A stretch of DNA of 32,000 bases from Caldimicrobium thiodismutans (GTDB lineage Bacteria; Desulfobacterota; Thermodesulfobacteria; Thermodesulfobacteriales; Thermodesulfobacteriaceae). The position numbers and the translations under genes were made by a program. Of this stretch, positions 6,989 through 15,976 are shown one piece after another. Below the pieces are notes generated by a model. That model ran no database searches. It was not told where the DNA came from and saw only the letters and a program-made list of their open reading frames with translations. Location of the stretch: contig NZ_AP014945.1 of the NCBI RefSeq assembly GCF_001548275.1, forward strand, positions 1,200,001 through 1,232,000. The letters run 5' to 3'. Each line of letters begins with the position of its first letter. Within the stretch, counting starts at the first letter, position 1.

Positions 6989-8727
6989 ATGTGCGGCATT
7001 TTTCTTTTATCTTCTAAAAAACCATTGAGTGATATTGAAATATCAAAGCTTAAATTAATAACCACAAAATTGAGACACCGTGGACCAGACGCAGAAGGCT
7101 TCTTTTTGTCTGAAGACAGACAAGTTTTTATATCTCATTATCGATTAGCTATTATTGACCTAGATGAAAGATCAAATCAGCCAATGATTAAAGAAAATCT
7201 GGTTATAACTTTTAATGGCGAAATTTATAATTTTAAAAAAATTAAACAGGAACTAACTAAAAGGGGTAGTAAATTTTTTACTGAATCTGATACGGAAGTA
7301 ATCTTAGAAGCTTATAAACATTTCGGTAAAGATTGCCTTGATTTATTTACGGGGATGTTTGCTTTTTGTATTTATAATAAAAATTCAAAAGAAATATTTT
7401 GTGCTAGAGATAGAATAGGCGAAAAACCGCTTATTTACTACATTGATGACCAAAAATTGATAATTGCTTCAGAAATACCGGTTATTTTAAGAACTCTTAG
7501 AGAAATTTATAATAGTCAGCCAGATATTGATAATGATATTTTAAGTTTATATTATTTAGGAACATATCGACATATACCTGAGCCTTATTCTATTTGGAAA
7601 GGGATTAAAAAATTAGAGCCCGCTAAATATCTATTAATTAAAGACAATAAAATTCAAGAAAATAATTTTTATTATCAGCCGAAAATTAGCAAAGAATATT
7701 TAAATTATCCAGAATCTAAAATCTGTAAAATGGTTAAACAAAGTTTAATAGAAGCAGTCGAATTAACGACAGTATCAGATGTTCCTTTAGCAGTTTTATT
7801 ATCTGGCGGTGTTGATTCTTCTATTATTAGTTTTATTTTAAAAAAAATTCTAAACAAAGATATAATAGCTTTTACTTATGGTCGAGATGAAAACGACGAA
7901 GAAATTCAAAGAGCAAGGTTGGTCGCCAACAAATTGAAAATTCCATTAAAAATATTTTATTTTAAAGAAGGTGATGTTTTGAAAAGTTTAAGAGATATAA
8001 TATCAATTTATGGCGAACCTCTATGCCTATTTCAATTTGCTTATTCAGATATACTTTATAAAAACATCAGAAATGAAGGCATAAAGGTCGTTATAACAGG
8101 TAATGGCGGAGATGAAATTTTTATGGTTATACCTCGCATCCTAAAACTTTATTATTTTCGTATATGATGAAAATTCTTAATTTTCTAAATTTATTAGATA
8201 ATAGAAAATTAAAAATTTTGAAATATAAATTTATGAGTTTTAAAAATAAATACCCATATGATAAGAAATTAGTCAATTCTATTTTTGACGAATTTGAACC
8301 TCTTTTATCAAATTTCAATAAAAGATTATTAATTGACTTTTCGAATTTTTGGGCTTTAATTAGCGAAAATGCTCATAGCATCACAATGGTCGCAGATATT
8401 GCAGGAATGAAAAACTCTGTAGAAGTAAGATCTCCGTTCTTAAATCATAACTTAGTTGAGTTAGCTTTCTCTATTCATCCTAAATTTAAAATTAAAAAAC
8501 TTTTTGATAAGACGGGTAAATATAATAAATGGATTTTAAAAAAAGCTTTTGAAGATTCCGAAATTAATGATATTCTATTTCTTAAAAAAGTAGGCTTTGG
8601 ATTTTATATCAAGTATGATAAAAACTTTGCTACAGAAAAAAATTTTCGTTTATGGAGCCTTAAAACATTTTCTGATATATTTGAAATTGATCTAAATAAG
8701 AAATTTGCTAATAATATCCTAAAATGA
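6989..8727 (+). pseudogene. asnB: Asparagine synthase (glutamine-hydrolysing, AsnB-like) split by a frameshift at a T5 run
   Basis: ORF1 (6989-8167) starts MCGIF (Cys2 Ntn amidotransferase) and has the PP-loop LLSGGVDSS. The expected G-x-DE-x-F-x-GY motif reads GNGGDEIF, then leaves frame at T5 (8118-8122). One extra T gives ...DEIFYGYTSHPKTLLFSYMMKILNF..., joining ORF2 (8164-8727). Confidence 0.8.
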
Positions 8728-8745
8728 TTTGTTTTTGTTATTAAA

Positions 8746-9050
8746 CATAGTGTCAATAATTTTATGTATAAAAATTTTTACTTTTATAAAAATTTTATTT
8801 TCCTTCTTTCCATGTCTTGCATTCCTGTACTCCCTTATCTCTTCTATTATCATCTCAAAATTTTTTAGTCTCTTACTTATATACTTCTCTCTCCTTAACT
8901 ACTAAATAAACAACTCTGTCAATCGAGACCTAACATGCAAAAACTTTCATAATCTTTACACTCCTCTTTAAATTCTTTATTAAATCGCTCAACTACTTTC
9001 TCTGTAAATATAAAACTCCCGCAAATATGATGACTTTCATGCTAAGTCTA
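8746..9050 (-). mobile_element. Decayed 3' fragment of a second, diverged IS256-family element (right end plus about the last 95 transposase codons)
   Basis: The reverse complement ends ...ATTGACACTATG, against ...GTTGACACTATG in the intact copy. It aligns back through remnants of TTNALERF-KE-KRR (FIFTEKVVERFNKEFK...) with stops and frameshifts. Its orientation is opposite to the intact IS. The upper boundary is approximate. Confidence 0.7.
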
Positions 9051-9068
9051 TGAATAATCAATCTATTT

Positions 9069-10067
9069 TTATGAGAATTCATTTTTGAAACCTCGCTTGA
9101 AAGTATAAAAAAGACCCTTGTCTTGAGGCACAAAAAACCAATAAGCCACCGCAGGCAAGAAAAAGAAAACATCCCTTGCCTTGCGAAGTAAAGATAAAAA
9201 GTAAAGTTTTTTATCTGGATTTACCTTTTTTAAATCTTCAACTCCTAAACTTGCAAGTTTTTCATCCTTTACTACGGACTTTTTAAGAGTCTTTTTAAGC
9301 CTAAGCCCTATACCACCTAATAATACACCCTCAAGATATGCAGGTATAGTCTTCAATTCATGTTTTACTCTTATAACCTTTATTGATGAAAATCCTGTAA
9401 GTTCCAAAGCCTGATAAAGTGCCTTTTTATTAAACCACAAAAAGTGATGAGGAGGAAAGTCTGAGTTTTCTCTTTCCCATAGTATTAACCTTTCTCTATT
9501 TGGCACGTCTCCTGCAATGAACCCACCGGGTTTTAAAAGCCTTTTTACATTTTCCAAAAACTCCTTTGGCTTGTCCTGATGCTCAAGCACCGCGAAAAAG
9601 GTTATTACATCAAATTTTAGCCCTTCCTTTTCGGCAAAATTTACAAATTCCTCTAAACTCATAGCATAGACATTTTTAAGTCCTCTTTTTTCTCTACAAA
9701 CTTCAACACTTTTCCTATCAAAGTCTATCCCCCAGACTTCAAAGCCCATTTCTTGCGCTCTCTTCAAAAACCTTCCATCTCCACAGCCTACATCAAGTAG
9801 CCTCCCAGATTTTAAAGGAATGTGTTTGAAAAAAGCTTTATAATCTTCTCCCAAACTCTCCCCTATTCCTAAGTGAAATATTGTATAAGCCTCATCCCCT
9901 TCCTCCTCATAAAACTCTTTTTCAATCTTTAAAGGCTCCCACCACTCAAGGTCACACCCTTCACAATGATAAAGCTTATACTCCTTTTTGTTCCAATCTG
10001 AAACATAAGTTTTTTTAAAAGCCCCGTTAGAAGCTTCCTTTCCACATACTGGACATCTTAAAATCAT
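9069..10067 (-). CDS. Class I SAM-dependent methyltransferase with N-terminal Zn-ribbon (paralog 2)
   Basis: Supplied ORF with CPVC...CEGC, LLDVGCGDGRF and DVITFFAVLEHQ. A strong SD GGAGGAGGG lies 7 nt upstream of the ATG at 10067. The C-terminal ~120 aa differ from paralog 1. Confidence 0.88.
   Translation of the reverse strand: MILRCPVCGKEASNGAFKKTYVSDWNKKEYKLYHCEGCDLEWWEPLKIEKEFYEEEGDEAYTIFHLGIGESLGEDYKAFFKHIPLKSGRLLDVGCGDGRFLKRAQEMGFEVWGIDFDRKSVEVCREKRGLKNVYAMSLEEFVNFAEKEGLKFDVITFFAVLEHQDKPKEFLENVKRLLKPGGFIAGDVPNRERLILWERENSDFPPHHFLWFNKKALYQALELTGFSSIKVIRVKHELKTIPAYLEGVLLGGIGLRLKKTLKKSVVKDEKLASLGVEDLKKVNPDKKLYFLSLLRKARDVFFFLPAVAYWFFVPQDKGLFYTFKRGFKNEFS
9525..10001. repeat. Direct repeat copy B (477 nt) inside methyltransferase paralog 2
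   Basis: See copy A (791-1267). It has the same orientation, and copy starts are 8734 bp apart. Confidence 0.9.
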
Positions 10068-10262
10068 TCTTTAGCCCTCCTCCTGCAATTTTTTGTTTAT
10101 AATGTAAGCATATCTCCTTCTGCCCTCCCGATGAGTTGGTTAGGCTAAAAGATACCACTAAAAATTCTTTTTTCCACATAGTTCTTCCCTTGTCGTATCA
10201 ACAGGAATAACATCCACATTAATGCTGAGTTTTCCCTCCAAAATAATCAGAAAGAATTATTT

Positions 10263-10652
10263 TTATAATTTACATTTCTCAATAATCTCCTGAGAAATTT
10301 CTATACTTTGATATACCATACCTTCAAGGTCAATGTTATTTAAATCGTTATCATAATCGCATTTATTTCTCCATCTTCTTAACTTATCTAATTTAGAAGC
10401 GATTTTTCCCCAATCTTTGCCTAATTTTCGTAAATATTCTCTTAAATACTTATGGTCTTTCGCTTCTCCGGTTGGTTTAAAACCAGAGTGTTTTTCAGCA
10501 TAATTGCGACACCAGCAAAAAGCTGAATAGTAAGCTCTACTAACTGCTGACCTGTAAGCGCATTCTCTTGAATATTCGGATCTTTGTAATCCAGCAAGTT
10601 CTTTTGCTAATTCTAAATACTCTTGCCAATTAAAAGCCATTTTTTTATTCAA
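10263..10652 (-). CDS. HEPN-like domain protein (putative toxin/RNase component)
   Basis: 129 aa, apparently all-helical. It has AYRSAVSRAYYSAFCWCRNYAEKHSG and a C-terminal LRRWRNKCDYDND block at the position of the HEPN R-x4-6-H motif. The assignment is by pattern recognition only; no HMM was run. Confidence 0.55.
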   Translation of the reverse strand: MNKKMAFNWQEYLELAKELAGLQRSEYSRECAYRSAVSRAYYSAFCWCRNYAEKHSGFKPTGEAKDHKYLREYLRKLGKDWGKIASKLDKLRRWRNKCDYDNDLNNIDLEGMVYQSIEISQEIIEKCKL

Positions 10653-11118
10653 ACTTTTTAAAATCGGTTGTTAACTGAATCCAACCTTTTTTGTCAACAA
10701 GGTAATCTAAAAATTCTGATTCTACATCTTCAAGTTTTTTCATAAATAGTTCATTATAACTTTTAGACCGAACATATATTACAATATATCTGTCATCTAT
10801 TTCTGGATCTTTGTATATATCAAAAACAACTTGATTATCCGGGAAATTTGATTTTATTATATTCGCAATAACAGGAATTAATTCTATCATATCAGAATAA
10901 TCTAAAAGATACTCTTTTATGTCTTCAAAATGTTCTAAATAAAATCCATATTTTTCTAATGTTTGTAGATTTTTTTCTATTCTTCTTTCAATAGATGTTT
11001 CAGTTTTGATAGATTTCATTAATTTTTGTAGAGAACCCATTCCCAACCTCTGTATATGTTTAATAAACTCTTGGGTTTGAAATAATAGGGGTGGATTTTT
11101 ATACTTTCCTTCTTTCAC
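10645..11118 (-). CDS. Hypothetical protein, partner of the HEPN-like gene (no recognisable family)
   Basis: 157-aa ORF with a GTG start at 11118 preceded by GAGAGG. It overlaps the downstream HEPN-like gene by 8 nt. No MNT-type hG[GS]...[DE]x[DE] motif or HTH was recognised. Confidence 0.5.
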   Translation of the reverse strand: MKEGKYKNPPLLFQTQEFIKHIQRLGMGSLQKLMKSIKTETSIERRIEKNLQTLEKYGFYLEHFEDIKEYLLDYSDMIELIPVIANIIKSNFPDNQVVFDIYKDPEIDDRYIVIYVRSKSYNELFMKKLEDVESEFLDYLVDKKGWIQLTTDFKKFE

Positions 11119-11275
11119 CTAACCTCTCTTTAAAATCTTTAAGTCCCATTTTATTAAATTTTTCCTTTTTCACAAAGGCACAATTTATTATCATATGGCT
11201 CATAGAATGGGTAACATCTGATCTAGTTTGATTTAAAAGTAATTCAAGGATAATATTAGTATCAATTAAATACAT
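11099..11275 (-). pseudogene. Truncated PIN-domain (VapC-like) toxin, only about 25 recognisable N-terminal residues
   Basis: Own translation from the ATG at 11275-11273 (TAATG overlap with the upstream antitoxin stop) gives MYLIDTNIILELLLNQTRSDV..., then unrelated sequence and a stop after 58 codons. Intact PIN toxins are about 130 aa. Confidence 0.55.
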
Positions 11276-11688
11276 TAGTCACTCAACAATTCTAAGTTTT
11301 TATGTTGAAGCTCTACTGAAGTATATTTATCTTTTAAATTTTGAAGTGCACCACGCCATGAGAGTTTCAATTCTTTTTTAGGTTTAGGATATTTTTTTTC
11401 TAACAAGAATTGGACAAAATCATACACCTCCTGCTCATACTCTGGTGGTAGCTTCTTAATCATTTCTATTAAAGATTCCATTTTTAGACCTCCTTTTTTT
11501 CTTAACCCAGTTATCTCTTTATAAAGCTCATCCACAGTAAGCTCCCCAAATAGCCTATCCTTAATTTCTAAATAATCTACCTTTTGATACAGGTTTTCGC
11601 GAATGAACATACTTGCTTTAAAAAGGCTCAAATTTTTAACTATCTTTTCCATAACCTTCAATTTTATATTTTCTTTATCTTGCAACAT
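11275..11688 (-). CDS. DUF2281/VapB-like antitoxin (C-terminal 68 aa) with an in-frame N-terminal extension of unknown nature
   Basis: The C-terminal part is MESLIEMIKKLPPEYEQEVYDFVQFLLEKK...LSWRGALQNLKDKYTSVELQHKNLE. The internal ATG at 11481 is preceded by AAAGGAGGT at 7-nt spacing, so a 68-aa product (11275-11481) is at least as likely as the 137-aa ORF. Confidence 0.6.
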   Translation of the reverse strand: MLQDKENIKLKVMEKIVKNLSLFKASMFIRENLYQKVDYLEIKDRLFGELTVDELYKEITGLRKKGGLKMESLIEMIKKLPPEYEQEVYDFVQFLLEKKYPKPKKELKLSWRGALQNLKDKYTSVELQHKNLELLSD

Positions 11689-11743
11689 ATTTTAAGATTA
11701 AACCAAGCATGCCAAGGATAAGTGTAAAACCTCCATAAACCAT

Positions 11744-11941
11744 TTACTGAAAAAATTGAAAGCGCCTCTCTAAGGCCTCAAAACGCCTATCCATCTCTCT
11801 CTGTAAAGCCTCAAATCGCCTCTCCACAAACTCCCTTAATGCCTTAAGCTCTTCCTCCACCCTAACCACCCTCTCTATCAATGATAACTCCTTCAATTTT
11901 GCCTCATTCACCCTTATATACTCCCCAATCTTCTCACTCAA
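11744..11941 (-). CDS. Small coiled-coil protein or gene fragment (RFEAL-repeat)
   Basis: 65 codons with a TTG start: ...LKALREFVERRFEALQREMDRRFEALERRFQFFQ. It resembles only the coiled-coil N-terminal part of longer proteins. The upstream frame is broken, with MAGLGLQGVSEQAIKDLVERF in another frame. Confidence 0.35.
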   Translation of the reverse strand: MSEKIGEYIRVNEAKLKELSLIERVVRVEEELKALREFVERRFEALQREMDRRFEALERRFQFFQ

Positions 11942-12337
11942 AATCTCCGATATACAAACCTCTCAACCAAATCCTTTATCGCCTGCTCTGATACCCCCTG
12001 TAATCCTAAACCAGCCATTTTTCTACCTCCTGCTTATTCCTATCTCCCTCTACTTCCTCTCTAAGTCTCTCTATAACTTTAACTCAAACTTCCATATAAT
12101 CAAAAAAGTGCAGAGGGGCACTATTCAAAGCTTTGAACAACCAAAATACCCTCTTCCTCTGCCATCTTTAAGGCTCTTGGCCTTGCAAAATGGGTATTGC
12201 CTGCTCAATTTTTAATAAAATCTTTATAAAAAGCTTTCTTAATAAAGGCTCAAGCGCATCCAAAGCCTGCATTATCTCTGCTGAATATATACCCATAATT
12301 AAAATACTAATCCTCTTTTAATCATTTGTCAAATTTC

Positions 12338-12362
12338 GTATAAGTCCATATCTTTTGAAACT
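12338..12362 (+). repeat. 25-nt motif copy 1 (GTATAAGTCCATATCTTTTGAAACT)
   Basis: 22/25 identical to 22785-22809. It contains the inverted arms TAAGT...ACTTA. Confidence 0.5.
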
Positions 12363-12901
12363 TAGGAAAATTATTCTACTACTTCGGTTGTAAAAAATAA
12401 ACATTTCACCCTTTTCCACCCCTTCTTTTTCTTGGTCGGATATGAATTTTAACACCTAACTTAAGCTCAAACACAAGCACATAATTGGCAAAAGGGTTAG
12501 CCCCAAATACCTGCAAAGGCAATAAAGGTCATAGCCTGAAGTCTTTCTTTGCCCTGTAAATACCTGTAGATGATAGGCTATACAAACACAAAGGGAAGGG
12601 TAAGAAAAGCTCAAAGTGGAGGGAGTTTCATACTGCGCATAACATATACTTGCATGGGATGACTTGTGCTATAGAGAGAACGATGGGCAAAGCAGTCCAG
12701 TTTCCTATTAGAATTAGCAAAGGGCGAGAGCCCCCTGTCTGAATTTACCCAAACCCCTTGCAAGTAAATTTAAGGATGAAGTTCTAAAAAAAGAGTGCTT
12801 TATATTCTCGGGTCCTTTTGGTAAAATGTAGGGGATGAGTTTTTTAACAATAGCTTGCATTAAAGAGAATTATATTATAATGTGAGAAAAGGGGTGGTAA
12901 A

Positions 12902-13984
12902 GTGGTATATATAATTCTTGTCTTTCTTGTAAGCTTTCTCTTATGTATGATAATAATAAGGCTTGGAGTTTTCAGTGATGCGCCCTTGGGGGTGCAAAAG
13001 TTTCACAAAAAGCCTACTCCGAGGGCTGGGGGGCTTGGGGTGTTTTTGGGGCTTTTGGGTGCAGGGGTTGGCTTTTGGGTTGCAAAGAAGGACTTTGCGT
13101 GGGAATACTTCCTTTTTCTTGTTACTTGCCTTCCTGTGTTTTTTGCGGGTATTTTGGAGGATGCAACAAAAAGGGTATCTCCTAAGTTGAGGTTGGTTGC
13201 TGGGTTTTTGTCGGGGCTTTTGGCTGTGCTTTTACTAAACGCTGGTGTGAAAAGGGTGAACCTTCCTTTCTTTGACCAGCTTCTTTCCTATTGGGTCTTT
13301 TCTTTGATTTTTTCTGCCTTTGCCTTTTCGGGGGTTTCTCATGCTTTTAACATCATAGATGGCTTTAATGGGCTTTTGGGTGGTGTTGCCATAATTGTTT
13401 TTGGCTCTTATGCTTATGTATCCTTTCTTCATGGGGACCTCTTTTTGACATACCTTAGTTTGAGCTTTGTCTTTGCTGTGCTTGGCTTTATGCTTTGGAA
13501 CTATCCCTTTGGTCTTGTCTTTTTGGGAGATGGTGGTGCATACCTTTTGGGCTTTGGAGCAAGTGTTTTGGGTGCTTTGCTAACCTCAAGGCATCCTGAT
13601 GTTTCTCCTTGGTTTGCCCTGCTTTTGGTGCTTTACCCTGTCTGGGAGACTTTGTTTTCTGTATACAGAAAAAAGTTTTTAAGAGGGACCTCACCAATGG
13701 AGCCAGACGGACTTCACTTTCATATGCTTGTCTATAAGCGCATTGTTAGGTTTTTTATTGGAGAAAGGGCTGAGGCATTAAAGAGAAACTCTTACACCTC
13801 TCCCTTTTTGTGGTTTATGGAGGTGCTGTGTGCGGTTCCTGCGGTTTTGTTTTGGAATAACACAAGCCTTCTTATGCTCTTTAGCTTTGCCTTTGTGGTT
13901 TTTTACACCTGGCTATACCTCAGAATAGTTAGATTCAAGGTGCCAGGTGTGTTTAAAGCTCCCCAGCGAGGGCAAAAACTCTGA
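12902..13984 (+). CDS. Polyprenyl-phosphate N-acetylhexosamine-1-phosphate transferase (MraY/WecA family, glycosyltransferase family 4)
   Basis: Supplied 360-aa polytopic ORF with KKPTPRAGGLGVF, ILEDATKRVSPKLRL, HAFNIIDGFNGL and FLGDGGAYLLGF motifs. It has a GTG start after AAAAGGGGTGG and is visibly more GC-rich than its surroundings. Confidence 0.85.
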   Translation: MVYIILVFLVSFLLCMIIIRLGVFSDAPLGVQKFHKKPTPRAGGLGVFLGLLGAGVGFWVAKKDFAWEYFLFLVTCLPVFFAGILEDATKRVSPKLRLVAGFLSGLLAVLLLNAGVKRVNLPFFDQLLSYWVFSLIFSAFAFSGVSHAFNIIDGFNGLLGGVAIIVFGSYAYVSFLHGDLFLTYLSLSFVFAVLGFMLWNYPFGLVFLGDGGAYLLGFGASVLGALLTSRHPDVSPWFALLLVLYPVWETLFSVYRKKFLRGTSPMEPDGLHFHMLVYKRIVRFFIGERAEALKRNSYTSPFLWFMEVLCAVPAVLFWNNTSLLMLFSFAFVVFYTWLYLRIVRFKVPGVFKAPQRGQKL

Positions 13985-14261
13985 GAAGGTTTACCGACAT
14001 GTTTTTGATGCTACCTGCAACCCTTAGGGCTTCGTATATAGGAACGGTGCCTATAGGGACGGTGATAACCTTTGTTATAGCTTCCCTTGTTATCTTTATA
14101 GCTTCACCGGTTGAGAGGTCCATTATGGTATCCACTCCGTATTTTATGGCTATTTTAACCTTCTCTAACTCTATGGGTATGTAGCTGGCAAGACCTGAGT
14201 TGCCTATGTTAGCGTTTACCTTTACCTCAGAGTTTATGCCTATGCACATGGGCTCAAGGTG
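13953..14261 (-). pseudogene. thiC: Internal fragment of thiC (phosphomethylpyrimidine synthase), about 100 codons
   Basis: HLEPMCIGINSEVKVNANIGNS...GVDTIMDLSTGEAIKITREAI...VPIGTVPIYEAL matches the conserved ThiC core (LEPMIIG..KVNANIGNS..GADTVMDLSTG..PVPIGTVPIYQAL). It has no N- or C-terminal parts, and its tail overlaps the 3' end of the WecA-like gene in antisense. Confidence 0.8.
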
Positions 14262-14611
14262 AGAATGTAATAGAAGATTTTTCAGCTTAAAGGAGGCAAA
14301 AGCCCCTAAAAGGTTTTAGTCCTCTTTCTTCTTATAATGATCTGATCTTAGAGTGTTTGCACCCATATCCTTTGACATTTATATCTATCTCTCACCCTTT
14401 TAATAGCATTTTTTCTGTAAAGATATAATTATATGCAATTTTTAATCTTTACTCCTGATCTTTTAACTCTATCATGTTTAACTTTAAGCTTATCTTCTCA
14501 AATAAAAATATAATGTGTTTTCAGGGTAATTTTTCAATCTTTATTAACTCTATTGAAAAAGAAAAATTTATTTGAAAAAAATTCCAAAAATCTAAATTTT
14601 TGTATAAAATT

Positions 14612-15976
14612 TTATAGCTTTGACCTTTTCCTGGAAAGTAACGTATATCCGGATATACACAGAAAAATATAGGCTCCAAAAGTGCCAAGGCAGATACCTT
14701 TTAATCCAAGCTTAAAATAAATCACTAAAAGATAATTCAAAGCCCCATTTATCATTACTCCCAGAAGGGCTATAAAAAAGATTGCCTTTAGCCACTCCCT
14801 TATTTGAAACACCCTGTATAAAATAGGCCAGATAAACATTAAGGGAAGACTTAAGGCATAATAACGAGTTGCCTCAGCTGTAAGAACTATATCTACTTTT
14901 GAAAAAGCACCATATCCAAAAAAAAGAGAAACTAATAAATCCGCAAAGAAAAATAAAATTAAAGTAAGAGGCAAAGTAATAAGAAAAATCTTTTTTAAGT
15001 AAAAATTTAACTTTTCAAGAGAACCCCCAACTTCAGATAGGGAGGTTATAGCCATGTGTTCAAGTTTTAAAATTCCCTTTGGAATTCCTGCCACAGTTAA
15101 GCCATAGGTTAAAGCTGAAACTGATTTTTCTTGAAGAAGGGAAGCAAAGGCCCTGTCTACAAGAATAAACAGGTGAAATGCTCCGTATAGAGCAGATAGA
15201 TAAAAAAAGTGCTGTAAAATTCTTTTAAAAGTGGCATCCACAAAAAAGTTAAAATGGATATAGGTCCTTCCTACATAAAGCATGTAAATGGTGGAAATTA
15301 ACTGGGCAAGAGAAAGGGAGATAGGCAACACCAGAGAAGAGCGATAGATAAAGAGGCCAAGGGAAATAAAAAGAAAGGTTGAAAAAGAAAAAAGGGCTTC
15401 TCCTACAAAATAGGCTGTAAAGTGCCTTGTGCTCCTCAAAACTGCACCAAAGTGATGAAAAATAAAATTTAGAAGGAGATAGGGCAAAAGAAGAAAATAA
15501 GCTTTTTTGGTTAAAGAGAGGGCTTCCTCGCTAAAGCCTCTTGGAATCTTTAACACAAGAGGATAAAAAATGAGAGCTAAAAAACCCGCTATCAGGGTTA
15601 AAATCAAGGTGAAGCTTAAAAGAAGCCCTGAAAGTCTTTTAAACTCTTCTTCACTTTTAAGGCGAGCCCTTACAAGATTGGGAACTCCTATGGAATCAAA
15701 AACATCGGCAAAAATTAAAAAAAGCCCGATAAGGGATACCGCCATAAAAAAGGCATCAGTTTCATAACTAAAACCAAGTAAAATAGCAATAGAAACATTT
15801 TTAAGATATCCAAAACCTCTTGCCAAAAGATTAATAAAAGAAGATTTAATAACCGCTTCCTTTACAGACTCTGAGGAAGTAGAAAAAAAACTTCTTAACA
15901 TCTCTTTTAAAAGATTTAAAATTCTTGAAATTTTCATTTGCCTTTGCAAGTCTATTCCAAAATTCCTATTTGACAA
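14612..15976 (-). CDS. MOP-superfamily flippase, MurJ/MviN-like
   Basis: Polytopic 454-aa ORF. LARGFGYLKNVSIAILLGFSYETDAFFMAVSLIG...FDSIGVPNLVR resembles the MurJ N-terminal signature. The start could be the TTG at 15976 or the ATG at 15937 (MKISRIL). Confidence 0.65.
   Translation of the reverse strand: MSNRNFGIDLQRQMKISRILNLLKEMLRSFFSTSSESVKEAVIKSSFINLLARGFGYLKNVSIAILLGFSYETDAFFMAVSLIGLFLIFADVFDSIGVPNLVRARLKSEEEFKRLSGLLLSFTLILTLIAGFLALIFYPLVLKIPRGFSEEALSLTKKAYFLLLPYLLLNFIFHHFGAVLRSTRHFTAYFVGEALFSFSTFLFISLGLFIYRSSLVLPISLSLAQLISTIYMLYVGRTYIHFNFFVDATFKRILQHFFYLSALYGAFHLFILVDRAFASLLQEKSVSALTYGLTVAGIPKGILKLEHMAITSLSEVGGSLEKLNFYLKKIFLITLPLTLILFFFADLLVSLFFGYGAFSKVDIVLTAEATRYYALSLPLMFIWPILYRVFQIREWLKAIFFIALLGVMINGALNYLLVIYFKLGLKGICLGTFGAYIFLCISGYTLLSRKRSKL

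What the first reader, a model, noticed from the sequence alone, without database searches (positions are those of the whole stretch)
10263..11118. Overlapping two-gene module: a HEPN-like protein and a 157-aa partner I cannot place, a candidate uncharacterised toxin-antitoxin or defence pair
Seen in sequence:
- Two minus-strand ORFs overlap by 8 nt (10645-10652).
- The upstream gene has a GTG start preceded by GAGAGG.
- The downstream 129-aa product looks like a HEPN domain. It has helices such as AYRSAVSRAYYSAFCWCRNYAEKHSG and a C-terminal LRRWRNKCDYDND block where the R-x4-6-H ribonuclease motif normally sits.

Established: small HEPN proteins in thermophiles are normally paired with a minimal nucleotidyltransferase (MNT, hG[GS]...[DE]x[DE]) that neutralises them.

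The 157-aa partner (…DIYKDPEIDDRYIVIYVRSKSYNELFMKKLEDVESEFLDYLV…) shows no MNT, HTH, RHH or other signature I can recognise.

Inference: this is either a very divergent MNT or a new kind of HEPN partner (antitoxin, sensor or adaptor). The pair sits in an AT-rich islet of TA debris and appears to have replaced the body of a neighbouring PIN toxin, which fits a mobile defence/addiction cassette.
Basis: partly seen in the sequence, partly recalled or inferred. Interest (0 to 1): 0.75.

Follow-up and report, generated by a model that had tools for sequence, protein, structure and literature searches.

The report
HEPN toxin with unannotated partner family
The two genes are a cut-down copy of a widespread but undescribed three-gene operon, in which a predicted RNA-cutting HEPN toxin sits directly after a protein of no known family that probably keeps it in check and that some phage-like contigs carry on its own.

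Summary
Both ORFs are real genes of Caldimicrobium thiodismutans: THC_1203 (called B here) and THC_1202 (called C here).

**C** is a HEPN four-helix protein of the AF0298-like HEPN-T type. Its motif is R-N-x-C-D-Y rather than Rx4-6H, and it has an invariant alternative His.

**B** is neither an MNT nor RnlB.
- It belongs to a large family: 1,110 clusters at 50% identity.
- The family has no Pfam, NCBIfam, PADLOC or PDB match.
- Its conserved unit is a C-terminal alpha/beta domain of about 115 aa.

**Linkage of B and C.** About 87% of 90 B genes have C immediately downstream, usually 11 nt overlapping to 8 nt apart. This holds in many bacterial phyla and in methanogens.

**The usual form has three genes:** a TIGR04255-family protein (A), then B, then C.
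- In an A-centred sample, 54 of 55 informative loci were A-B-C.
- The window holds a derived two-gene form. Its B begins with KYKNPPL, a remnant of the start of A fused in frame.
- Six other B genes in A-less loci show the same A-like start.

**Phage-like contigs** carry the B core alone. It is up to 88% identical to cellular copies.

**Neighbours** include restriction-modification and cas genes.

Best reading: a toxin-antitoxin or abortive-infection module in which B neutralises C. No function has been tested. I rate it a new variant of a known kind.

The parts
10263..10640 (-). Gene C (THC_1202): HEPN protein, 125 aa from ATG 10640. The longest ORF starts at TTG 10652.
   Evidence: ORF. Homologue N-termini and the GenBank/RefSeq 125-aa call. 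PF05168 on homologues. PDB profile hit 9xbd, E=3.7e-7. AF2 pLDDT 90, and nearly all top Foldseek hits are HEPN proteins.
10353..10370 (-). Codons for R91-N-K-C-D-Y96, the variant HEPN motif (His replaced).
   Evidence: Read from the sequence. RN..DY is invariant in 35 aligned homologues and in nearly all B-linked C proteins.
10452..10454 (-). Codon for H63, the invariant alternative His of AF0298-like HEPN-T proteins.
   Evidence: Invariant column. This feature is described for the clade in PMC3710099.
10645..11118 (-). Gene B (THC_1203): 157-aa ORF from GTG 11118. Alternative start at ATG 11040 gives 131 aa.
10645..10998 (-). Conserved core domain of B (residues 41-157): three helices, a beta-hairpin, a helix and a strand.
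   Evidence: The profile match of the family covers roughly positions 36-157. AF2 pLDDT is above 90 from residue 41. Invariant D104, E106, R117, Y121 and T151.
10792..10809 (-). Codons for D104-P-E-I-D-D109, the acidic loop of the beta-hairpin and the most conserved motif of the B family.
   Evidence: This motif was used as the search pattern.
11059..11118 (-). Residues 1-20 of the B ORF (MKEGKYKNPPLLFQTQEFIK): an in-frame remnant of the start of a lost TIGR04255-family gene (A).
   Evidence: A proteins start M-x-[RK]-K-Y-x-N-P-P-[ILV]-[IV]-E-A-V-C-E-F. KYKNPPL is identical to the start of L019 A. An HMM of the A N-terminus ranks the window B 5th of 4,421 non-A ORFs, and the top 7 are all B proteins of A-less loci. 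AF2 models this stretch as disordered.
11123..11128 (-). GAGAGG, a Shine-Dalgarno-like sequence 4 nt before GTG 11118.
   Evidence: Read from the sequence.
11099..11275 (-). 58-aa ORF whose first ~22 residues resemble a PIN/VapC N-terminus. Probably a truncated vapC at the upstream edge of the module.
   Evidence: PIN_3 E=0.09, residues 2-22 only. The same arrangement occurs in metagenome contig L090.
11275..11688 (-). DUF2281/VapB-like antitoxin gene, now without an intact toxin. A neighbour, not part of the module.
   Evidence: PF10047 E=7e-18 and NCBIfam TA_VapB E=4e-6.

Best explanation
The locus is a two-gene derivative of a widespread three-gene operon that I could not find described: A (TIGR04255-family protein, ~246 aa), B (unannotated family, conserved ~115-aa C-terminal alpha/beta domain) and C (AF0298-like HEPN-T protein).

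**Shown**
- B and C are real, conserved and almost always adjacent, usually 11 nt overlapping to 8 nt apart.
- B and C are co-inherited.
- This A subfamily is essentially always followed by B and C.
- The window copy has lost A. It keeps the A start codon region fused in frame onto B.
- B is not an MNT or RnlB and has no detectable relative of known fold.
- Phage-like contigs carry the B core alone.

**Inferred**
- C is a toxic RNase that uses R91 plus the alternative H63.
- The B core domain neutralises C, most likely by direct binding, possibly through its invariant acidic hairpin (D104, E106, D109). B's variable, probably disordered N-terminal region connects to A.
- A is an accessory sensor or regulator. 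It is not needed for neutralisation, which is why it can be lost.
- In-frame A'-B fusions are what survives A loss, because they keep the B core translated from A's start site. This is the signature of addiction to B.
- Solo B on phage-like contigs acts as a decoy antitoxin, as T4 Dmd does against RnlA. That would imply the cellular system acts in abortive infection.
For: **C is a HEPN**
- PF05168 E=2e-7 on homologue L004.
- PDB profile hit 9xbd, E=3.7e-7.
- AF2 pLDDT 90. Top Foldseek hits are 1wwp and HepT (7bxo, 6m6w, 5yep), TM 0.6-0.68.
- Invariant R, N, D, Y and H63 match the alternative-His class of PMC3710099.

**B is a large family of unknown kind**
- 1,110 representatives.
- No Pfam, NCBIfam or PADLOC family.
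- No PDB sequence hit.
- No Foldseek PDB hit below E=0.09.

**Linkage**
- Of 90 B genes, 78 have C next to them: 41 as ABC and about 37 as BC.
- 75 B-C pairs are spaced mostly -11 to +8 nt. Mirror-tree r=0.49, against a permutation maximum of 0.19.
- 6 of 6 loci chosen through C have B or a B-like gene upstream.
- In the A-centred sample, 54 ABC and 1 AB of 55 informative loci.

**A-loss remnant**
-.
- A is split into two ORFs in L037 and L042.
- Where C is absent or degraded, B survives. This is the decay order expected for antitoxin and toxin.

**Solo B on phage-like contigs**
-.
- The neighbours are phage-like.
- The B core is 87-88% identical to cellular B, and the similarity starts at the core domain.

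**Context**
- Immediate neighbours include N6_N4_Mtase, ResIII, Mrr, AAA_21 and Cas5d.
- An intact ABC lies on the Thermus brockianus megaplasmid beside a methylase, CopG-VapC and cas6.
Against: - No experiment exists on any member.
- C lacks the canonical catalytic His. RNase activity of this HEPN class is itself only predicted.
- B has five invariant polar residues. That is more typical of an enzyme or ligand-binding site than of a simple binding antitoxin.
- B has no DNA-binding domain, unlike classical type II antitoxins.
- No B:C complex model could be made.
- A's fold and role are unknown; I could not model it.
- PHROGs holds distant relatives of A, B and C. Phages or prophages may therefore also carry whole systems, which weakens the decoy reading.
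- IMG/VR contigs can include host DNA.
- The window's own match to the A N-terminus is weak on its own (E=0.53). It is convincing only in the context of the other fusions.
Confidence: 0.6

Rival explanations
1. B is a highly divergent or inactivated minimal nucleotidyltransferase, so the pair is a degenerate type VII HEPN-MNT (HepT/MntA) module.
For: - HEPN-T proteins are classically paired with MNTs (PMC3710099).
- One weak Foldseek hit is to a putative nucleotidyltransferase: 1ylq, E=0.25, TMt 0.46.
- B has conserved carboxylates near a beta-hairpin.
- C keeps an invariant Tyr in its motif. MntA enzymes AMPylate a Tyr beside the HepT motif (PMC7641770 and PMC13000451).
Against: - None of 99 family members hits an NTP_transf_2 or MNT Pfam model, even at E<=0.1.
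- There is no conserved G[GS] and no [DE]x[DE] on a strand. The only near-invariant Gly is in the C-terminal GW.
- The predicted topology is a beta-hairpin with no helix between the strands. It lacks the alternating helix-strand core I recall for MNTs.
- No PDB sequence hit.
Confidence: 0.05
2. B is not a stoichiometric inhibitor. Either it is a small enzyme or ligand sensor that modifies or switches C, or A is the true antitoxin and B is an adaptor linking A to C.
For: - D104, E106, R117, Y121 and T151 are invariant across about 100 diverse sequences. This is unusual for a mere binding partner.
- B's variable N-terminal region is present when A is present and shortened when A is absent.
- A has near-invariant Cys, His and Asp positions (C15, D178, C180, H223). 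These could form a catalytic or metal site.
Against: - A is dispensable. About 37 BC modules lack it, whereas B is retained whenever C is.
- The phage-like contigs carry only the B core, without A.
- No known catalytic fold was matched.
Confidence: 0.17
3. The module is not a conflict system. C is a catalytically inactive RNA- or nucleotide-binding HEPN, and A-B-C is a housekeeping or regulatory complex.
For: - The canonical Rx4-6H His is missing.
- PMC3710099 notes that some HEPN domains are inactive binders.
- Some loci sit among ordinary genes, for example ribosomal protein genes in L004.
Against: - The charged and polar residues R, N, D, Y and H63 are invariant. PMC3710099 treats this as a sign of an alternative active site.
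- The distribution is patchy across distant phyla and archaea.
- Copies occur on a megaplasmid.
- There are tandem duplications, pseudogenised A genes and degraded C genes.
- Neighbours include restriction-modification and cas genes.
- Solo B copies occur on phage-like contigs.
Confidence: 0.1
4. In this genome the pair is only a decaying relic left after deletion of A and disruption of vapC, and it no longer functions.
For: - A is lost and its remnant has lost the A invariants E12, A13 and C15.
- The start codon of B is ambiguous.
- The module abuts a truncated PIN gene.
- No clear promoter or terminator was found.
Against: - Both ORFs are intact and keep every family-invariant residue.
- Sequences at least 90% identical recur on several other contigs of up to 582 kb.
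- BC-only modules are common (about 37) and widespread, so the two-gene form is evidently stable.
Confidence: 0.08

Closest known systems
HepT/MntA (HEPN-MNT) type VII toxin-antitoxin systems (e.g. Shewanella SO_3166/SO_3165; PDB 5yep, 7bxo, 6m6w)
   Same: - A small stand-alone HEPN protein is encoded directly after, and tightly coupled to, a small partner gene.
- HepT structures are among the best structural matches of C.
- Both have a Tyr beside the basic motif residue.
- Both are found in defence and mobile contexts.
   Different: - The partner is not a nucleotidyltransferase by sequence, motif or predicted topology.
- C has R-N-x-C-D-Y plus a distal His instead of Rx4-6H.
- A third gene (TIGR04255 family) is part of the usual operon.
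AF0298-like HEPN-T proteins (PF05168; PDB 2hsb, 1wwp, 1o3u) as classified by Anantharaman et al. 2013 (PMC3710099)
   Same: - The motif His is absent, the basic residue is kept, and a second strongly conserved His lies N-terminal to the motif.
- 1wwp is the top Foldseek hit.
- Clustering with restriction-modification genes is noted for that family and is seen here.
   Different: - That family is described as stand-alone or MNT-associated.
- The clade here is linked to the B family and to TIGR04255. In the passages of that paper that I searched, I found no three-gene arrangement.
RnlA-RnlB / LsoA-LsoB with phage T4 Dmd
   Same: - A HEPN RNase toxin is held in check by a small, non-enzymatic, non-DNA-binding antitoxin (PMC3710099; PMC8266594).
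- From my own knowledge, phage T4 carries its own antitoxin, Dmd. The solo B core on phage-like contigs would be the analogue.
   Different: - B is unrelated to RnlB. Only 2 of 99 members give weak PF15933 hits, and hhalign probability against E. coli RnlB is 0.14%.
- The gene order is reversed (rnlA before rnlB).
- RnlA is a large multidomain protein.
- The phage-contig copy here is a homologue of the host antitoxin. As I recall, Dmd is not homologous to RnlB.
Tripartite toxin-antitoxin systems (e.g. HipBST, toxin-antitoxin-chaperone modules)
   Same: Three co-transcribed genes in which a third protein accompanies a toxin-neutraliser pair, and reduced two-gene versions exist.
   Different: There is no homology to any component. 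The third gene here has unknown fold and activity and lies first in the operon.

Membership tests
HEPN superfamily (protein C) | All-alpha, four-helix up-and-down bundle fold | tested here: met
   The AF2 model (pLDDT 90.4) has five helices. The best Foldseek PDB hits are HEPN proteins (1wwp, 7bxo, 6m6w, 5yep, 4nqf, 2q00, 1jog), probability 0.97-1.00, TM 0.5-0.68.
HEPN superfamily (protein C) | Significant match to a HEPN sequence model | tested here: met
   The window protein alone is below the Pfam cut-off (20.6 against 22 bits). Homologue L004 scores 31.6 bits, E=2e-7. Many homologues carry PF05168. The family profile hits PDB 9xbd 'HEPN domain-containing protein' at E=3.7e-7.
HEPN superfamily (protein C) | Canonical Rx4-6H catalytic motif | tested here: not met
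   The motif is R91-N-K-C-D-Y96, and this form is conserved in nearly all B-linked homologues. An invariant H63 upstream fits the alternative-His variant described for AF0298-like HEPN-T. Catalysis was not tested.
HEPN-MNT (HepT/MntA, type VII TA): partner B as an MNT | Partner has the nucleotidyltransferase signature hG[GS] and [DE]x[DE], and matches NTP_transf_2-type models | tested here: not met
   No such Pfam hit in 99 family members at E<=0.1. No conserved G[GS] or DxD on a strand. The only structural link is 1ylq at E=0.25.
HEPN-MNT (HepT/MntA, type VII TA) | Antitoxin covalently AMPylates a Tyr of the toxin | not testable with these tools
   C has an invariant Tyr (Y96) in the motif. 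PDB 9xbc is a Tyr-to-Phe version of the closest solved relative. Modification needs mass spectrometry.
RnlAB/LsoAB: partner B as RnlB | Homology to RnlB (PF15933) | tested here: not met
   The window B hit is E=0.0049, below the cut-off. Only 2 of 99 members hit. hhalign of the B profile against E. coli RnlB gives probability 0.14%.
Type II toxin-antitoxin module | Antitoxin gene directly upstream of the toxin gene and tightly coupled to it, with the two co-inherited | tested here: met
   75 pairs, spacing mostly -11 to +8 nt. Mirror-tree r=0.49 against a permutation maximum of 0.19.
Type II toxin-antitoxin module | Antitoxin carries a DNA-binding domain (HTH, RHH, AbrB) for autoregulation | tested here: not met
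   No such domain in Pfam or NCBIfam scans of B. The predicted fold is a compact alpha/beta domain.
Type II toxin-antitoxin module | Toxin arrests growth, and the antitoxin binds and neutralises it | not testable with these tools
   Only indirect evidence. B persists where C has decayed. In-frame A'-B fusions preserve B expression. Solo B occurs on phage-like contigs.
Anti-phage defence system | Match to a catalogued defence system | tested here: not met
   In PADLOC v2, B and A have no hits. C has only weak HEPN_IX and PDC-M05B hits, with a best E-value of 1.8e-5 on a homologue.
Anti-phage defence system | Association with defence islands or mobile elements | tested here: inconclusive
   Of 146 immediate neighbours: N6_N4_Mtase 6, ResIII 6, Mrr_N 4, AAA_21 3, NA-iREase1 3, Mrr_cat 2 plus Mrr_cat_2 2, Cas5d 2, IS200 2. 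The Thermus megaplasmid copy lies beside a methylase, VapC and cas6. No background rate was computed.
TIGR04255 family (protein A; absent from the window) | Match to NCBIfam TIGR04255 above its cut-off | tested here: met
   A proteins of L003, L004 and L008 score E=1.5e-44, 1.3e-51 and 2.2e-37 against a 30-bit cut-off. The Thermus copy is annotated as such. In the window only about 12-20 N-terminal residues remain.

The most novel reading that the evidence does not exclude
A-B-C is a previously undescribed, widely distributed three-gene abortive-infection system.
- The TIGR04255 protein senses infection.
- B is a new-fold antitoxin.
- An alternative-His HEPN is the RNase effector.
- Phages have captured the B core domain as a decoy antitoxin.
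- The recurrent in-frame A'-B fusions are a natural record of cells being addicted to B once A is lost.
Probability: 0.35. Interest if true: 0.8.

Novelty: new variant of a known kind. Interest (0 to 1): 0.68.

Why it matters
- HEPN toxins are among the most abundant prokaryotic toxins, and the only well-understood way of restraining the small stand-alone ones is the MNT enzyme. This locus would add a second, unrelated partner for a whole HEPN clade. That partner family has over a thousand sequence clusters and no annotation in any library searched here.
- It links TIGR04255, a named NCBIfam family for which I found no papers, to a concrete operon and a testable role.
- It offers a candidate phage counter-defence protein: solo B core on phage-like contigs, up to 88% identical to host copies.
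- The repeated in-frame fusions that keep the start of the lost gene are a rare sequence-level trace of selection to keep an antitoxin expressed.
- Cultivable handles exist: C. thiodismutans (two-gene form) and the Thermus brockianus GE-1 megaplasmid pTB1 (three-gene form).

Tried and rejected
**Hypotheses tested and rejected**
- RnlB homology of B. The weak PF15933 hit is not shared by the family and fails hhalign.
- MNT identity of B. No model hits and no motifs.

**Searches that found nothing**
- Sequence relatives of known structure for B and for A: none.
- Fold relatives of B: nothing below E=0.09 in PDB by Foldseek. One unnamed viral protein in BFVD at E=1.2e-4.
- PADLOC for A and B: no hits.
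- Annotated phage genomes (INPHARED) hold no B by tblastn. Plasmids hold one, in Thermus.
- A-like genes on viral contigs: none.
- Literature searches for TIGR04255, CHP04255/IPR026349, UPF0332 and 9XBD: no relevant paper.

- I tried to define the vapC breakpoint by finding intact relatives of the DUF2281 gene. There was no exact record and no metagenome relative.

**No signal**
- Promoter, terminator and repeat scans of 9900-11800 gave nothing beyond chance and no flanking duplication.
- No tRNA in the window, and no Rfam family in 8000-15000.

**Weak test**
- A strict regex for the A-start motif gave only p=0.06 between A-less and A-containing loci. The HMM ranking test is the stronger one.
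Full report
**1. The observation**

The window is from the chromosome of the thermophile Caldimicrobium thiodismutans. Six window proteins, including both of interest, are exact matches to its proteins. C is THC_1202, named 'HEPN domain-containing protein' in RefSeq. B is THC_1203, 'hypothetical protein'.

Both minus-strand ORFs exist as described: 10263-10652 and 10645-11118. GAGAGG lies four nt before the GTG at 11118, and the LRRWRNKCDYDND block is present. Three details need correction.

- **Overlap.** Homologues of the downstream protein begin M-x-F-[DN]-W-x-[ED]-Y, and GenBank and RefSeq aa. The likely start is therefore ATG 10640, 4 nt after the upstream stop. The 8-nt overlap is an artefact of taking the longest ORF.
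- **Start of B.** It is ambiguous: GTG 11118 in RefSeq, or ATG 11040 in GenBank, which is preceded by AGAGG.
- **HEPN motif.** It is not Rx4-6H. It reads R-N-K-C-D-Y.

**2. Protein C is a HEPN of a particular class**

- The window protein scores just under the Pfam HEPN cut-off (E=5e-4). Its homologues pass it (L004, E=2e-7; many).
- A profile of the family finds PDB 9xbd/9xbc, 'HEPN domain-containing protein', at E=3.7e-7.
- The AF2 model (pLDDT 90) is all-helical. Its top PDB matches are almost all HEPN proteins, including 1wwp and HepT of the MntA-HepT complexes.
- In 35 aligned homologues, RSAVSRAxY, AFC, H63 and RN..DY are invariant. The motif form R-N-x-[CAS]-D-Y holds in nearly all C proteins found next to B.
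- This matches the class Anantharaman et al. describe for AF0298-like HEPN-T proteins. The motif His is missing, the basic residue is kept, and a second conserved His N-terminal to the motif may form an alternative active site (PMC3710099).
- RNase activity is therefore plausible but predicted only.

**3. Protein B is a large, uncatalogued family**

- The word-index search found only two relatives. An exhaustive profile search found 1,110 cluster representatives at E<=1e-3, and 618 at E<=1e-10.
- Typical members are about 180 aa. Only the C-terminal ~115 aa are conserved. D104, E106, R117, Y121 and T151 (window numbering) are invariant, and Y70, L71, D76, Y102, D109, G145, W146, T150, D152 and F153 are nearly so.
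- Every source name shown for these proteins is 'hypothetical' apart from one 'predicted GTPase' label, and none has a Pfam domain.
- The family has no Pfam, NCBIfam or PADLOC model and no sequence relative in the PDB.
- The AF2 model is confident from residue 41 onward (pLDDT above 90). Residues 1-40 are mostly low-confidence and probably disordered. The fold is three helices, a beta-hairpin carrying the acidic D-P-E-I-x-D loop, a long helix and a final strand.
- Foldseek found nothing in the PDB below E=0.09. It found one unnamed viral protein in BFVD (E=1.2e-4).
- The MNT idea fails. No member hits a nucleotidyltransferase model, and the G[GS] and DxD signatures are absent.
- The weak RnlB_antitoxin hit is a one-off. 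Only 2 of 99 members show it, and hhalign gives probability 0.14%.

**4. The pair is conserved, and it is usually a trio**

- The first HEPN homologues I looked up all had a B gene immediately upstream, with a ~246-aa gene upstream of that. That third protein, A, is a TIGR04255-family protein (E=1e-37 to 1e-51).
- In 80 species-representative genomes plus metagenome loci, the architectures around 90 B genes were ABC 41, BC about 37 and B alone 10.
- The hosts span many bacterial phyla and methanogenic archaea: Methanothrix, Methanoculleus, Methanocalculus and Methanoregula.
- The 75 B-C pairs are spaced mostly between -11 and +8 nt. Their pairwise divergences correlate (r=0.49, against a permutation maximum of 0.19), so they travel together.
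- More distant C homologues, from a cyanobacterial subfamily and the P0016 group, are also preceded by divergent B-like proteins.
- Sampling from the other side, 80 metagenomic loci were chosen through A. Of the 55 with enough downstream sequence, 54 were ABC and 1 was AB.
- An intact ABC lies on the Thermus brockianus GE-1 megaplasmid pTB1, beside an N4/N6 methylase, a CopG-VapC pair and cas6.

**5. The window copy is a reduced form with a remnant of A**

- A proteins begin M-[GS]-[RK]-K-Y-x-N-P-P-[IV]-[IV]-E-A-V-C-E-F-R.
- The window B ORF begins MKEGKYKNPPLLFQTQEF. KYKNPPL is identical to the start of L019 A, and the EF falls at the same offset.
- The same A-like start opens B in other loci that lack A:
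  - L052: MSVNPPIIEAVCESRL
  - L029: MGKKCANPPVVEE
  - L074: MAKKYLDPPI
  - L026: MPGKYLNPTIIE
  - L016: MKEKYKNSSILE
  - L022, and probably cluster representative P0114: MSRKHKNPPIVE
- An HMM of the first 24 residues of A was searched against 4,421 non-A ORFs. The top seven hits were all N-termini of B proteins from A-less loci. The window ranked fifth, with E=0.53 on its own.
- The retained length differs between loci (about 10 to 19 residues), so several independent deletions are likely.
- In each case the body of A and the variable N-terminal part of B are gone, and the B core is read from A's start.
- A is also found split into two ORFs in L037 and L042.
- In the B-alone loci, C is degraded (L077) or missing.
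- The decay order is therefore A first, then C, with B last.

**6. Phage-like contigs carry the B core alone**

- Six IMG/VR viral contigs (at least four distinct) encode B proteins of 112-143 aa, with no A or C within the flanks retrieved (up to 5 kb).
- Their neighbours are phage-like. They include a DNA methyltransferase directly upstream in three contigs, a sliding-clamp/processivity factor, a head maturation protease and a DUF932/phrog_1221 protein.
- The viral copies are 87-88% identical to B of cellular ABC operons over about 90 residues, and the similarity begins where the conserved core begins. One of the cellular loci (L002) comes from the same metagenome as two of the viral contigs.
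- Caveats: viral-contig calls can include host DNA, and PHROGs contains distant relatives of A, B and C, all of unknown function.

**7. How it most likely works**

*Shown:* the gene anatomy, the linkage, the A-loss remnants, the solo B on phage-like contigs and the defence-type neighbours. Of 146 immediate neighbours: N6_N4_Mtase 6, ResIII 6, Mrr_N 4, AAA_21 3, NA-iREase1 3, Cas5d 2.

*Inferred:*
- C is a toxic RNase.
- The B core neutralises it. B sits in the antitoxin position, is kept whenever C is kept, outlasts C in decaying loci, and is the part found alone on the phage-like contigs.
- A is an accessory sensor or regulator that is not needed for neutralisation.
- In-frame A'-B fusions are what selection allows when A is deleted, because B in the full operon starts at or over the A stop and probably depends on A's translation.
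- I favour direct binding, perhaps through the acidic hairpin into the basic HEPN cleft. The five invariant polar residues of B keep an enzymatic or ligand-dependent mechanism open.

**8. Comparison with known systems**

- It works most like HEPN toxin-antitoxin modules. It resembles HepT/MntA in gene layout and toxin fold, and RnlA/RnlB with phage Dmd in having a non-enzymatic antitoxin and a possible phage counter-measure.
- It is a member of neither. The MNT and RnlB membership features were tested and not met.
- PADLOC v2 does not contain it.
- Literature searches for TIGR04255, its InterPro names and UPF0332 found no papers in the library searched.

**9. Verdict**

- The real unit is a three-gene operon, and this copy is a truncated derivative.
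- Function is untested.
- Novelty: a new variant of a known kind.
- Interest: 0.68.

Noticed in passing
window 11099-11688 (- strand): A DUF2281/VapB-like antitoxin gene (137 aa, PF10047 E=7e-18) is followed, with an ATGA overlap, by a 58-aa ORF. Only the first ~22 residues of that ORF look like a PIN/VapC N-terminus. This is apparently a vapBC pair whose toxin was truncated where the B-C module begins. The same arrangement is seen in metagenome contig L090.
   Followed up: partly
window 10950-10969 and 11013-11032: A 20-nt imperfect direct repeat (80% identity) spaced 63 nt (21 codons) apart lies inside the non-conserved N-terminal part of B (LQKLMKS / LQTLEKY). It suggests a small internal duplication after the fusion event.
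   Followed up: no
window 11744-11941 (- strand): A 65-aa ORF with a coiled-coil-like internal repeat (RRFEALQREMDRRFEALERRF) and no family match. The only terminator-like hairpin in the region (11776-11764) lies inside it.
   Followed up: no
window 11950-12900: About 950 bases with no ORF over 52 aa, between the small-gene cluster and a glycosyltransferase gene. There is no Rfam family and no tRNA. This could be further gene debris.
   Followed up: partly
L052, L029, L074, L026, L016, L022 and window 11059-11118: In every A'-B fusion seen, 19 or fewer residues of A are retained, never a longer piece. Random deletion breakpoints would not predict this. Either longer A fragments are harmful, or the A N-terminal peptide has a role of its own.
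   Followed up: partly
L037 4162-4896; L042 4174-4926: The TIGR04255 gene is split into two ORFs (140-150 aa plus 81-105 aa) in a Bacteroidia MAG and in Chloroflexus islandicus, while B and C stay intact. This looks like pseudogenisation of A in progress.
   Followed up: partly
L059 4896-7272+; L067 1868-3679+: Tandem duplicated modules (B-C-B-C) occur in an Acidobacteriota MAG and a Gemmataceae MAG.
   Followed up: no
L094 1-3381: A distant C homologue (P0016) is preceded by a divergent B-like protein (B profile E=1.4e-8) and by a 206-aa protein in the A position that the A profile does not recognise. An ApeA_NTD1-domain protein lies further upstream. The first gene of the operon may be replaceable.
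   Followed up: partly
L065 4947-6707; L083 1747-3502: In two Methanomicrobia genomes a solo B gene lies about 600-700 nt from a Cas5d-type gene.
   Followed up: no
protein C, window 10263-10640 (C42 and C94): Two cysteines are conserved in C. C42 in AFC is invariant. C94 inside R-N-x-C-D-Y is conserved in the B-linked clade and is Ala or Ser in the cyanobacterial subfamily. A redox switch involving two cysteines was reported for a fused MNT-HEPN toxin (PMC13000451, abstract). I did not test whether these two could pair.
   Followed up: no
PDB 9xbd / 9xbc: The closest solved relatives of C are two deposits of one 125-131-aa HEPN protein that differ by Tyr-to-Phe in the RNRSD[Y/F] motif. No paper was found for them. 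Someone appears to be studying that Tyr.
   Followed up: partly
L004 4406-5983: A 525-aa protein made almost entirely of ankyrin repeats is encoded 28 nt downstream of C in one ABC locus. This is unusual in a bacterial MAG.
   Followed up: no
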